Part shown: one piece after another, positions 16,534 through 19,694 of the stretch | Numbering within the stretch: position 1 is the stretch's first letter | Layout of the letters: every line of letters begins with the position of its first letter | Source of the DNA: Coleofasciculus sp. B1-GNL1-01 | GTDB lineage: Bacteria; Cyanobacteriota; Cyanobacteriia; Cyanobacteriales; Coleofasciculaceae | NCBI GenBank assembly: GCA_040220235.1 | Contig: JAVJTO010000031.1 | Length of the DNA: 64,000 nt | Strand: one strand, 5' to 3' | Notes under the pieces: model-generated | Told to the model about the DNA's origin: nothing | Seen by the model: the letters and a program-made list of their open reading frames with translations, nothing else | Database searches by the model: none | Position numbers and translations under genes: made by a program

Positions 16534-17042
16534 ATTCTCGTCTGGATCAGCAATTTTAGGGGATATGCCAATCACAATAAATAGTTTACTGGAGTATCAG
16601 AGGATGGGTTTTTTACCCCGATTGCACCCCCTATCTCTCTTGATGGAGGTTGTCATCTGATTCCCCGACTATCCTAAGCAGTATCTCAGGGTAAATCCCT
16701 GTTCATTCAACATCTTTGAGGCTTTAGCTGTCATTCATGCAATATCGAACAACAATCGGGTGGTCACTTCTTACTTCGGGAATCGTAACCCTCTTGCTCA
16801 AGAGTTTCCCAGGTAACTCCCTGTGGTGGGGAATTGGTTTTCTCGTTATCGGAACGGTTATACTCTTGGCGCGAAAAGCTGTTTAGTATTCCCAAAACCT
16901 GGCATTATTAGGCAAGATGACTCATTTTGCTCGACCACCAGCGACAAGGGAATCAACCTGACCAAACGACAACATCCCGGAACTGTTTCCAAGTCCGGGA
17001 TGAGGCGATCGCATCAGCCGAAAACTTAATTAAAATTAAACC

Positions 17043-17885
17043 TCAAGCTGACACAGCCGCTAAACTGGCTGGGATTTTTCGCCCGACGGCGGCGGCGACG
17101 GGGTGTAAGCTGTGAACCAACTGCACCATATCGTCTAACGATAACGCTTGACGGGCATCCGATACGGATTTTTCCGGTTCGGGATGACACTCGATGATTA
17201 ATCCATCCGCACCTACTGCGACAGCCGCTTTCGCCAACGGGGAAATTAATTCCCGTTTGCCCGTGGCGTGGGAGGGATCTACAATCACAGGCAATGAAGT
17301 CATCTGCTTAAGTGCCACAACTGCTCCCAAATCTAAGACATTCCGGGTATAAGTATCGAAACTGCGAATCCCTCGTTCACACAGTACCACCTGAGAATTC
17401 CCATGACTGAGAATATATTCGGCTGCCATAACGAATTCTTCTAGAGTCGCCGCTAATCCCCGCTTCAGCAGAATCGGTTTATCAACTTGACCCAAGGCTT
17501 TGAGTAAATCAAAGTTTTGCATATTACGACTGCCTACCTGAAGCATATCAGCATGGGCAGCCACTAACTCGATTTGGGTAATGGACATGACTTCCGTCAC
17601 CACGGGAATCTGATGACGCGATCGCACCTGGGATAATATCTCTAGTCCCTCTACCCCTAAACCTTGGAACGAGTAAGGAGACGTGCGAGGTTTGAAAGCA
17701 CCGCCGCGTAACGCCTGAACCGGGGCGCGTTGCAGTTGAGTGGCGACGGTTTCCATCTGCGATCGACTCTCCACCGTACAAGGACCAGCAATTATCACCA
17801 GTTCCTCACCCCCGAAAGTGATATGATTCGACAGATGAACCAAAGTTGGGCGATCGGATTGGGTGGCAAGTGTAGCATTCACCAT
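17043..17885 (-). CDS. aroF: 3-deoxy-7-phosphoheptulonate (DAHP) synthase, type I-beta, catalytic barrel only
   Basis: IAGPCTVES, RGGAFKPRTSPYSFQG, GSRNMQN, LKRG, CERGIR, DPSH, ECHP, SDARQ; SD AAAGGA before ATG 17885; 280 aa. Confidence 0.96.
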   Translation of the reverse strand: MVNATLATQSDRPTLVHLSNHITFGGEELVIIAGPCTVESRSQMETVATQLQRAPVQALRGGAFKPRTSPYSFQGLGVEGLEILSQVRSRHQIPVVTEVMSITQIELVAAHADMLQVGSRNMQNFDLLKALGQVDKPILLKRGLAATLEEFVMAAEYILSHGNSQVVLCERGIRSFDTYTRNVLDLGAVVALKQMTSLPVIVDPSHATGKRELISPLAKAAVAVGADGLIIECHPEPEKSVSDARQALSLDDMVQLVHSLHPVAAAVGRKIPASLAAVSA

Positions 17886-17918: not shown

Positions 17919-17950
17919 AAAAAAACCCGGTTCCTTGTGGGTTCCGGGTT
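17919..17950 (-). terminator. Attenuator terminator 2 (aroF-proximal)
   Basis: mRNA AACCCGG-AACCCACAAGGAA-CCGGGUU UUUUU; lies 5' of the aroF start. Confidence 0.9.
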
Positions 17951-17975
17951 CTGAGAAAATTTAACGCAGCATCAC

Positions 17976-18044
17976 CTACCCGGAACTGCTTCCGAACCAA
18001 AAAAAGTAAAACAAGGTAAACCAGTGATTCAGGTAGGTTGTCAT
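17976..18044 (-). CDS. Leader peptide 2 MTTYLNHWFTLFYFFWFGSSSG
   Basis: SD AAGGAG (18051-18056) 6 nt before ATG; 9 of 22 codons Phe/Tyr/Trp; overlaps the antiterminator arm. Confidence 0.9.
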   Translation of the reverse strand: MTTYLNHWFTLFYFFWFGSSSG

Positions 18045-18056
18045 CAGATACTCCTT

Positions 18057-18092
18057 AAAAAACAAAAAGACCGCAGCTTTCGCTCTGCGGTC
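18057..18092 (-). terminator. Attenuator terminator 1 (distal)
   Basis: mRNA GACCGCAG-AGCGAAAG-CUGCGGUC followed by UUUUUGUUUUUU. Confidence 0.9.
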
Positions 18093-18121
18093 CACCGGGG
18101 AGGTTCCATGAGGAACTCTGC

Positions 18122-18178
18122 TCACCTCCGGTGAACCTCCGTAAACCAAAAATAAAAGTAGTTGTTGCAGTTGAGCAT
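18122..18178 (-). CDS. Leader peptide 1 MLNCNNYFYFWFTEVHRR
   Basis: Six consecutive aromatic codons (YFYFWF); 3' part carries the antiterminator arm; no clear SD. Confidence 0.85.
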   Translation of the reverse strand: MLNCNNYFYFWFTEVHRR

Positions 18179-18502
18179 AGCTGAGGGCTTTTTATGAAAC
18201 GTTAATTAGATGCCTGTTACTGGACACGATAGCAAGCTGTTGTGGCTAAGTCAATACCTGATCTGGATCAAGTTTCTGTTTTCCACGGGTGTGATCATGC
18301 ACCTGGGGGAGCTGGGGGAGCTGGGGAAGCTGGGGAAGCGGGGGGAGGATAAAGTTATAGCACTTCTCGATTGGGTGCAATACACCTTGGTAGAGACAGG
18401 GTGTGGGGTGTGGGGTGTGGGGTGTAGGGTGTAGTGCTTTCAAATGAGAACCGCTATATATCTTTGAATGCAACTTGGTATAAAGTACAGTCTATCCAAG
18501 CA

Positions 18503-18535
18503 AGATCCCCGACTTCTTTGAGGAGTCGGGGATCT
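18503..18535. repeat. Palindromic dispersed repeat AGATCCCCGACT...AGTCGGGGATCT
   Basis: 12-bp inverted arms; related copy at ~10643-10690. Confidence 0.8.
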
Positions 18536-18584: not shown

Positions 18585-19694
18585 ATGAACCTAAATTTAA
18601 CCGAACATACCGAAGGCAATGCCACATTTAAAATTGGTAATGCGTTTTATCGCCCAGGGACGCAAGTGGTGCGAGATTTAGGCATTTTAGCCGCAGCAAT
18701 TTATAAGTTTCAAATCGGTCACTTACGAGTAATTGATGCGATGAGTGGCTGTGGAGTGCGTTCTCTACGCTATAGTTTGGAAAGTCAAGCCGATTGGATC
18801 TGGGTGAATGAGGGAAATCCTGAGCTTAACCCGATTCTACAGCAAAATTTAGCAGGCGCGATCGCCAGCCATAAAGCTACCCTTACCCATCTCGACGTTA
18901 ATCAGGTCTTTTTTGAGTGCTATAACCGTCGAGATTACTACGATTTCATCGATGTGGACTGTTTCGGTTCCCCTACTCCCTATCTGGATACCAGCCTCTG
19001 GGCGCTGAAACTAGGGGGACTTCTTTATCTCACCAGTACCGATGGGCGTAAACTAACAGGTCATGCTTCAGAAAGCAGTTTGGGGATTTATGGGGCGTAT
19101 CCCCGCAACCATCCCGCCGCCCAGGAACAAGGATTGCGAGTGGTGATTGGTAAACTTCAGCAGCAAGCCATCGCCAAGGGTTTGGGGATTGAGCCGATTT
19201 TCTCCCTGTTTACGGGTCAAACTTACCGCCTAATGGTACGTTTGGTCAAAACCCAGCCGTTGACGCTGCAAAATTACGGATTTTTGGGTTATTGTCATCA
19301 CTGTGGTAATTATCAAACTGTGTCTTGGCGTCAGTTAGGGCGTGTGGTTTGTGCTTATGACCAAAAATCCCTGACCCTGAGTGGTCCGTTGTGGCTGGGA
19401 TTGTTGCATAATCAATCTTGGTTAAGACAGATGCAGGGATTAGCTCAAAAGTGGCACTGGTCAAAACGGGTACAACTCCTCAGCCTCATGGAAGCAGAAG
19501 CCGATTTCCCGCCCTACTTTTATACCTTGGCGGAAATTGGACGCCGAGGGCGTTTGGATATCCCAAAACGAGAGTATCTGATTCAGGCGTTGCGCGATCG
19601 CGGATATTTCGCCTGTGCCACTCATATTACACCGGGAGCGATTAAAACCAACGCCGATATTCACACTTGTATCGCTGTTGCGATAGACCGATAA
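18585..19694 (+). CDS. Trm1-like tRNA (guanine-N2)-dimethyltransferase
   Basis: AFYRP...RDL, IDAMSGCGVRSLRY SAM motif, DFIDVDCFGSP, TSTDG, CHHC, GPLWLG, TH...AIKTNA. Confidence 0.88.
   Translation: MNLNLTEHTEGNATFKIGNAFYRPGTQVVRDLGILAAAIYKFQIGHLRVIDAMSGCGVRSLRYSLESQADWIWVNEGNPELNPILQQNLAGAIASHKATLTHLDVNQVFFECYNRRDYYDFIDVDCFGSPTPYLDTSLWALKLGGLLYLTSTDGRKLTGHASESSLGIYGAYPRNHPAAQEQGLRVVIGKLQQQAIAKGLGIEPIFSLFTGQTYRLMVRLVKTQPLTLQNYGFLGYCHHCGNYQTVSWRQLGRVVCAYDQKSLTLSGPLWLGLLHNQSWLRQMQGLAQKWHWSKRVQLLSLMEAEADFPPYFYTLAEIGRRGRLDIPKREYLIQALRDRGYFACATHITPGAIKTNADIHTCIAVAIDR

What the first reader, a model, noticed from the sequence alone, without database searches (positions are those of the whole stretch)
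17919..18056. Proximal attenuator has a full 1:2 / 2:3 / 3:4 switch
Seen: the leader-2 3' end GUUCCGGGU (17978-17986) is perfectly complementary over 9 bp to ACCCGGAAC (17941-17949), the terminator 5' arm, giving the antiterminator. The same segment can instead pair locally as UUCGGAA-GCAG-UUCCGGG, a pause/protector hairpin that begins in the last Phe codon. Inference: a ribosome stalled on FYFFWF masks strand 1 and frees strand 2 to antiterminate, while a ribosome at the UAG masks strand 2 so the terminator forms. The SD for this leader directly abuts the U-tract of terminator 1.
Basis: partly seen in the sequence, partly recalled or inferred. Interest (0 to 1): 0.8.

Follow-up and report, generated by a model that had tools for sequence, protein, structure and literature searches.

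The report
Aromatic leader-peptide attenuator before DAHP synthase
This is the second of two back-to-back RNA switches in which a ribosome stalling on Phe, Tyr or Trp codons probably lets transcription run into the first gene of aromatic amino-acid synthesis; it is a textbook kind of control, but doubled, and I found no report of it in cyanobacteria.

Summary
The pairings exist as described, on the minus strand, upstream of a 280-aa DAHP synthase that lacks its regulatory domain. Both leaders occur at 133 of 140 orthologous loci with enough upstream DNA.

The antiterminator (2:3) is well supported. In 138 sequences, one pair changes on both sides on 8 of 10 tree branches (0.9 expected), and its partner in the terminator does not follow. 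The key Trp codon lies 13 nt before strand 2 in 123 of 138, so a stalled ribosome frees strand 2 and one at the stop covers it.

A longer helix between leader codons 3-5 and the stop region dominates the untranslated RNA and is probably the main protector. The SD next to terminator 1 is real here, but seen in only 48 of 119 loci.

Verdict: a ribosome-mediated transcription attenuator, in tandem, predicted to sense Phe, Tyr and Trp; function untested. My paper searches found no cyanobacterial report. This scan already noted the same system in other genomes.

The parts
18226..18254 (-). sigma70-type promoter-like site (17-nt spacing, TG-extended -10), about 40 nt before leader 1
   Evidence: consensus match only (9 of 12); similar hexamers seen by eye upstream of leader 1 in relatives
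18122..18178 (-). leader ORF 1, 18 codons, aromatic run Y-F-Y-F-W-F
18128..18137 (-). attenuator 1 antiterminator 5' strand; pairs with 18098-18089 and so takes the base of terminator 1
   Evidence: I8; 79 both-side cells against 22.2 shuffled, 0 of 500, 117 sequences
18057..18093 (-). terminator 1: stem 18093-18068 and U-tract
   Evidence: 99.9% of cells paired
18051..18056 (-). SD-like hexamer of leader 2, directly after the U-tract of terminator 1
   Evidence: such adjacency in 48 of 119 loci
17976..18044 (-). leader ORF 2, 22 codons, 9 aromatic; key Trp16 codon at 17999-17997
   Evidence: stop 7 codons after the Trp position in 129 of 138
18030..18038 (-). upstream protector strand (leader codons 3-5); pairs 9/9 with 17982-17974 and hides half of strand 2 in untranslated RNA
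   Evidence: probability 1.0 in free RNA; own against foreign partner -12.6 vs -10.7 kcal/mol, 0 of 20,000 permutations; no fixed-column covariation on the tree
   Evidence: -6.6; no column covariation; weak hairpin kept in most relatives
17978..17986 (-). strand 2, antiterminator 5' strand, inside the last three codons and the stop of leader 2
17965..17966 (-). conserved pyrimidine-G step 11-13 nt after strand 2; candidate RNA polymerase pause site (inference)
   Evidence: 130 of 138 sequences; spacing 11-13 nt in 128 of 138
17941..17949 (-). strand 3, shared by antiterminator and terminator
17919..17950 (-). terminator 2: 7-bp stem, 2x2 A/A loop, 2 bp, U7 tail
17043..17885 (-). short type-I DAHP synthase (aroF-like), 280 aa, without the ferredoxin-like regulatory domain; no conserved downstream partner
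   Evidence: (PF18152 absent here, present in the genome's second, 352-aa copy)

Best explanation
The proximal unit of a tandem ribosome-mediated transcription attenuator that sets expression of a DAHP synthase lacking its allosteric domain. Shown in sequence: leader ORF, competing helices, terminator, conservation, covariation and spacing. Inferred steps: (1) RNA polymerase that has passed terminator 1 transcribes leader 2 and probably pauses near 17966, giving a ribosome time to load. (2) If charged tRNA for Phe, Tyr or Trp is short, the ribosome stalls in the aromatic run. It covers the local hairpin but stops 1-2 nt short of strand 2 at Trp16. Strand 2 captures strand 3 before strand 4 is made, and the gene is transcribed. 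(3) If supply is ample, the ribosome reaches the stop, covers strand 2, and the terminator forms. (4) If the leader is not translated, codons 3-5 pair with the stop region, strand 2 is hidden and the terminator forms by default. Two units in series would multiply their read-through, giving a lower basal level and a sharper response.
For: 2:3 helix in 138 sequences: 93.8% of cells paired, 29 both-side changes against 6.9 shuffled, 0 of 500; slid registers reach at most 60.5%. On the tree, pair 40/100 changes on the same branch 8 times of 10 (null 0.91, 0 of 20,000) and pair 39/101 7 times (null 1.56, 2 of 20,000). The terminator pair at the same base (100/119) does not covary, 1 against 1.07. 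29 sequences have both inner terminator pairs broken and 27 of them keep the matching 2:3 pairs. 3:4 helix: 71 against 23.6, 0 of 500. The Trp codon is 13 nt before strand 2 in 123 of 138; 6 or more of 10 codons are aromatic in 133 of 138. With all upstream RNA masked, modelled 2:3 probability exceeds 0.5 in 133 of 138 for a stall at Trp and in 0 of 138 two codons later or at the stop. None of 15 other DAHP synthase loci (49-56% identity) shows either leader. No Rho gene over the family cut-off in the genome.
Against: No functional data. The switch must be kinetic: at equilibrium on the full-length RNA the terminator wins at 0.73-1.0 for stalls from Trp8 to Phe17. With one ribosome at codons 13-17 and no steric rule, the model lets the upstream protector re-pair round the ribosome and 2:3 falls to 0.03 or less in the window; across relatives it stays above 0.5 in only 83 of 138 for a single ribosome at Trp. 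Antitermination there needs steric exclusion or a second ribosome on the start codon. Without any ribosome 2:3 is still above 0.5 in 58 of 138, so default termination is not general in the model. RNAalifold found no consensus structure over the leader region, and the upstream helix has no fixed-column covariation on the tree. Only 43 of 134 leaders have an SD-like site. Whether transcription and translation are coupled in cyanobacteria is open: one review says so for bacteria other than E. coli and Bacillus (PMC10931766, passage).
Confidence: 0.85

Rival explanations
1. The stall is caused by the nascent peptide itself (an arrest peptide sensing a free amino acid or metabolite in the exit tunnel), not by shortage of charged tRNA; the RNA switch is the same.
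For: The F-Y-F-W run followed by Pro is strongly conserved: Trp in 123, Pro in 85 of 138. Both leaders share the motif.
Against: Aromatic positions swap freely among F, Y and W. Ten sequences end the run in Phe instead of Trp. The conserved C-terminal Ser-Gly is explained by strand 2, and Ser-to-Pro changes there are compensated in strand 3. Two leader-1 copies have an early stop and keep the RNA switch (L137, L160).
Confidence: 0.08
2. The U-rich run works at the nucleotide level, as a polymerase pause or UTP sensor (pyrBI-like or NusG T-tract pause), or a protein binds it, and the peptide is incidental.
For: Leader Phe codons are UUU in 414 of 454, while the downstream genes use UUU in 186 of 667. 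T-rich non-template motifs cause NusG-dependent pauses in B. subtilis (PMC9963633, passages); a U-rich leader senses UTP in pyrBI (PMC3641672, passage).
Against: The frame, the 234 UGG codons, both Tyr codons (161 UAC, 112 UAU), the stop position (129 of 138) and the 13-nt spacing are all kept; length changes in the aligned aromatic run look like whole codons by eye. The regulated gene makes the precursor of exactly these amino acids.
Confidence: 0.05
3. The hairpin with its U tail is a processing or stability element, or a constitutive weak terminator, and the leaders are small functional peptides.
For: Strong U-tract hairpins are rare after long genes in this genome (97 of 4,221 ORFs), so termination signals in this phylum may differ from the E. 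coli type.
Against: Independent covariation of the alternative helix is hard to explain unless both folds are used. The peptide has no Pfam match and its N-terminal half varies freely.
Confidence: 0.02

Closest known systems
Corynebacterium glutamicum aroR-aroF leader-peptide attenuator (Neshat et al. 2014, seen only as summarised in PMC11802643, passages)
   Same: Leader with Phe-Tyr-Phe upstream of a DAHP synthase gene; transcription rises when ribosomes stall at Phe and Tyr codons.
   Different: One leader, an operon, Actinobacteria. Here two leaders in series, with Trp as well, and a single gene without a regulatory domain. Sequence homology was not tested.
E. coli trpL and pheL attenuators (PMC11802643, PMC3641672, PMC8346122, passages)
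   Same: Leader ORF with cognate codons, competing antiterminator and intrinsic terminator, control by charged tRNA.
   Different: Each senses one amino acid and has one switch. From my own knowledge, trpL strand 2 lies mostly after the stop and 1:2 is one strong local hairpin. Here strand 2 lies within the last codons, the local hairpin is weak, and a long-range helix from the first codons protects strand 2. No Rfam match.
uORFC-13-1 motif upstream of aroF in Acholeplasma (PMC8632094, passages)
   Same: Upstream ORF with a U-run coding Phe, next to an intrinsic terminator, before 3-deoxy-7-phosphoheptulonate synthase; predicted only.
   Different: 24 sequences, Acholeplasma and environmental; single unit. 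Not compared by sequence here.
Salmonella mgtCBR leader (PMC3641672, passages)
   Same: Two attenuators with short ORFs in one leader.
   Different: They sense two different signals (ATP, proline). Here both leaders carry the same three amino acids and each has its own intrinsic terminator.

Membership tests
Ribosome-mediated (leader-peptide) transcription attenuator | Short upstream ORF rich in codons for the pathway's end products | tested here: met
   9 of 22 codons aromatic; 6 or more of 10 in 133 of 138 relatives; downstream gene is DAHP synthase
Ribosome-mediated (leader-peptide) transcription attenuator | Intrinsic terminator between leader and gene | tested here: met
   By sequence only: -14.0 kcal/mol plus U7; covariation
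Ribosome-mediated (leader-peptide) transcription attenuator | Mutually exclusive antiterminator under its own selection | tested here: met
Ribosome-mediated (leader-peptide) transcription attenuator | Spacing such that a stalled ribosome frees, and a terminating ribosome covers, the antiterminator 5' strand | tested here: met
   13 nt in 123 of 138; model 133 of 138 against 0 of 138 with upstream RNA masked. Footprint assumed: 12 nt from the first A-site base, the upper end of the 12-15 nt from the P site given in PMC3641672 (passage)
Ribosome-mediated (leader-peptide) transcription attenuator | 1:2 pause / anti-antiterminator hairpin | tested here: inconclusive
   Local hairpin: no column covariation, weak pairing kept. 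Long-range helix: partner specificity but no fixed register; 56 against 34.8 both-side cells in the shuffle test
Ribosome-mediated (leader-peptide) transcription attenuator | Leader is translated; read-through responds to amino-acid starvation; RNA ends at the terminator | not testable with these tools
   Only assembled contigs were available for RNA runs
Rfam leader families (Trp, Phe, His, Leu, Thr leaders) and T-box | Match to the family covariance model at its gathering score | tested here: not met
   0 matches in the 64-kb window against 4,227 families; no search below the gathering score was run
TnaC-type arrest-peptide attenuator (features recalled) | Rho-dependent termination | tested here: not met
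   No rho over the cut-off in the genome, best 36.6 bits against 509; Rho listed as absent from cyanobacteria in PMC8346122 (passage)
TnaC-type arrest-peptide attenuator (features recalled) | Stalling set by the nascent peptide and a free ligand | not testable with these tools
   Needs toeprinting; sequence variation argues against it
C. glutamicum aroR or Acholeplasma uORFC-13-1 | Sequence or structure homology to those leaders | not tested
   Their sequences were not fetched

The most novel reading that the evidence does not exclude
Cyanobacteria use a doubled leader-peptide attenuator that reads Phe, Tyr and Trp supply twice, in place of allosteric feedback, on a regulator-less DAHP synthase. 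The proximal unit has a design of its own: the start of the leader ORF pairs with its own stop region to hide the antiterminator, so that ribosome loading (perhaps a second ribosome queued behind the stalled one) is part of the signal, and a conserved pause 11-13 nt downstream times the decision. If so, transcription and translation are functionally coupled at this locus in a phylum without Rho, and the leader is a ready reporter for that question.
Probability: 0.45. Interest if true: 0.75.

Novelty: new variant of a known kind. Interest (0 to 1): 0.6.

Why it matters
How cyanobacteria control entry into the shikimate pathway at the level of transcription is poorly described in what I could search. 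A stalling-dependent terminator switch would be direct evidence that ribosomes can steer RNA polymerase in this Rho-less phylum. Two switches with the same input in series are unusual; the tandem case I read (mgtCBR) senses two different signals. The 300-nt leader is easy to test as a reporter and could serve as an aromatic amino-acid sensor for engineering. The mechanism class itself is old, and this scan has noted the system in other genomes, which limits the surprise.

Tried and rejected
Rfam scan of the window: 0 matches. RNAalifold on 106 of the 138 leader-2 regions: no consensus pairs. Tree test of the long-range helix in the window's register: no pair clearly above its null, best 364 of 5,000. 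The diagnostic pair for the local hairpin, and for the local and long-range helices, was mis-indexed; those columns are void and were redone. RNA runs: 11 on record as RNA hold the stretch or part of it. Four were laid; all are assembled contigs of a related strain (27-33 differences in the long pieces), three spanning leader and gene in one piece. They cannot show ends, strand or level, and may include DNA. Stop-to-terminator distance as a proxy for uncoupled transcription: 11 of 97 within 12 nt, median 39; crude, no clear signature either way. Search of the own genome with profiles of both units: no second copy, best other hit E 0.48. An aromatic operon downstream: neighbours differ from locus to locus. 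Ten paper searches gave no description of this leader; most listings were seen as title and start of abstract only. The Synechocystis Ribo-seq preprint (10.64898/2025.12.20.695498, one passage) suggests a different 45-aa ORF as attenuator for aroQ translation; its supplements were closed and could bear on small ORFs. Most subscription papers are not in the library, including the comparative attenuation surveys that I recall (Vitreschak 2004, Merino and Yanofsky 2005, Lopatovskaya 2010; recalled, not seen).

Full report
Setting. The element lies on the minus strand between a promoter-like site at 18254-18226 and a 280-aa type-I DAHP synthase at 17885-17043. That protein lacks the ferredoxin-like regulatory domain PF18152, which the genome's second, 352-aa copy has. 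The nearest named records, at 95-97% protein identity, are titled Coleofasciculus. Downstream neighbours vary between genomes, so the gene appears to stand alone. Two short ORFs precede it: leader 1 (18178-18122) with terminator 1, and leader 2 (18044-17976) with terminator 2.

Observation. Strand 2 (17986-17978) matches strand 3 (17949-17941) at 9 of 9. One correction: the terminator is a 7-bp stem, a 2x2 A/A mismatch and 2 more pairs, so two bases of strand 3 pair only in the antiterminator. The local hairpin is real but weak (-6.6 kcal/mol, two G-U pairs). Genome-wide, only 3 of 65,392 short ORFs combine a dense aromatic run with a strong hairpin and U-tract, and two are these.

Distribution. 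The short enzyme (68-100% identity) was found in 52 of 301 genomes drawn across the phylum. From I held 160 such loci, 143 after removing duplicates. Three had too little upstream DNA. Of the other 140, 121 had both units by a strict pattern, 17 only unit 2 and 2 only unit 1. Reading, 12 of the 17 do have a leader-1 peptide with a variant terminator, which gives 133 of 140 with both. Five have unit 2 without leader 1 (two of them interrupted by foreign DNA). None of 15 other DAHP synthase loci (49-56% identity) shows either leader. These genomes are related, so counts are not independent.

The antiterminator. On a sequence-only alignment of 138 unit-2 regions, the 2:3 helix is 93.8% paired with 29 both-side changes against 6.9 in shuffles. 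That control ignores relatedness, so I mapped changes on a tree of the enzyme (137 of 138 sequences). Pair 40/100 changes on the same branch 8 times out of 10 (branch-length null 0.91, 0 of 20,000) and pair 39/101 7 times (1.56, 2 of 20,000). The terminator pair using the same base 100 does not covary. In 6 of the 8 sequences with the U-A to C-G change the terminator side stays U. The change turns a Ser codon of the leader into Pro, so the RNA pair is kept at the cost of the peptide. Further, 29 sequences have lost both inner terminator pairs, and 27 of them keep the matching antiterminator pairs. The 3:4 helix covaries at other positions. Both folds are therefore under selection. Unit 1 behaves alike: 79 both-side changes against 22.2 for its antiterminator, and a 99.9% paired terminator, in 117 sequences (shuffle control only).

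Ribosome geometry. The nearest in-frame Trp codon starts 13 nt before strand 2 in 123 of 138; 12 have no Trp there. The stop follows 7 codons later in 129 of 138. I modelled a footprint of 12 nt from the first A-site base on RNA ending at strand 3. With everything upstream masked, 2:3 exceeds 0.5 in 133 of 138 for a stall at the Trp position and in 0 of 138 from two codons later. In the window it is 0.91-1.0 at the aromatic codons tested from Trp8 to Phe17 and 0 from Gly18. Against this: on the full-length RNA at equilibrium the terminator wins (0.73-1.0 for those stalls), so the switch has to be kinetic.

The 1:2 question. A weak hairpin in some register is still kept: median -6.0 against -3.2 kcal/mol shuffled, and own partner better than foreign in a thinned set of 67 (80 of 20,000 permutations). 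In the free RNA a different helix dominates: 18038-18030 with 17982-17974, 9 pairs, probability 1.0 against 0.02 for the local hairpin. Across the thinned set, the first codons pair with their own stop region better than with foreign ones (-12.6 against -10.7 kcal/mol, 0 of 20,000; two control pairings gave 2,605 and 3,865). In the full set the own pairing beat the 5th percentile of shuffles in 72 of 138. Its register slides between lineages: RNAalifold finds nothing, the shuffle test is positive (56 against 34.8), and the tree test is not. I read it as the likely anti-antiterminator for the untranslated state, with moderate confidence. It raises a problem: if one ribosome stalls at codons 13-17 and RNA may pair round it, the model shuts 2:3 off. 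Steric exclusion, or a second ribosome on the start codon, would solve this; neither is shown.

Two further signals. A pyrimidine-G step lies 11-13 nt after strand 2 in most sequences (130 of 138 have the step). Pause hairpins form about 11-13 nt upstream of the paused 3' end in B. subtilis (PMC9963633, passage); the Y-G pause consensus is recalled. I take this as a candidate pause. Phe codons of the leader are UUU in 414 of 454 against 186 of 667 in the gene; this is unexplained and could reflect wobble decoding, avoidance of pairing with the G-rich strands, or a T-tract pause.

The SD. It abuts the U-tract here, but only 48 of 119 loci show this and 43 of 134 have an SD-like site before the chosen start. 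It is a lineage feature, not part of the core design.

Known systems. It works like E. coli trpL/pheL and C. glutamicum aroR-aroF (PMC11802643, passages) and meets every sequence-testable feature of that class except a clear 1:2 hairpin, which is inconclusive. It matches no Rfam family. A predicted single leader before aroF is described for Acholeplasma (PMC8632094, passages). Tandem attenuators are known from mgtCBR, with two different signals (PMC3641672, passages). The genome has no rho, which rules out a TnaC-type Rho switch. Ten searches of the paper library found no description in cyanobacteria, but the library lacks most subscription papers. Earlier notes of this scan describe the same tandem system in other genomes; they are unchecked, and I took from them only the lead to PMC11802643.

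Verdict. Observation confirmed; interpretation right on 2:3, 3:4 and ribosome logic, overstated on 1:2 and the SD. A new variant of a known kind, confidence 0.85, interest 0.6.

Noticed in passing
window 16973-17002: Inverted repeat with perfect 9-bp arms about 40 nt after the aroF stop; probably the gene's own 3' hairpin. It contains the same 8-mer as strand 3 of attenuator 2 (read).
   Followed up: no
window 18503-18535: Perfect 12-bp inverted repeat between the promoter region and the divergent gene; present in some genus members and absent in others; may be a small mobile or repeated element.
   Followed up: no
window 18303-18347 and about 18400-18435: Short tandem repeats (9-nt unit, 4 copies; 7-nt unit) upstream of the promoter; the 9-nt repeat is very abundant in the laid runs.
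   Followed up: no
window 18585-19694 (+): Divergent gene resembling Trm1 tRNA guanine dimethyltransferases, below the family cut-offs.
   Followed up: partly
window 18122-18135 (-): Attenuator 1 has a small hairpin that includes the leader-1 stop codon, 99% paired in 117 sequences but without both-side changes; by eye a pyrimidine-G step follows about 13 nt later, as in unit 2.
   Followed up: partly
L059, L061 (unit 2): Leader 2 has a longer aromatic run and no stop in the usual place; the frame runs on through the switch, which should change the logic.
   Followed up: no
L137 and L160 (leader 1): Early stop just after the aromatic run with the RNA switch intact; natural test cases against a role for the C-terminal residues.
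   Followed up: partly
L011, L119, L023, L026: Foreign or repetitive DNA inserted between the two units, into the start of leader 2, or between terminator 2 and the gene.
   Followed up: no
L145, L161 (unit 1 only); L044, L054, L139 (unit 2 only): Natural single-attenuator versions, useful for asking what the doubling adds.
   Followed up: partly
L108, L111, L073: Records titled Proteobacteria, Obscuribacterales and Gloeobacterales carry both leaders; L108 and L111 group together on the enzyme tree. The titles were not verified, so transfer or mislabelling is open.
   Followed up: no
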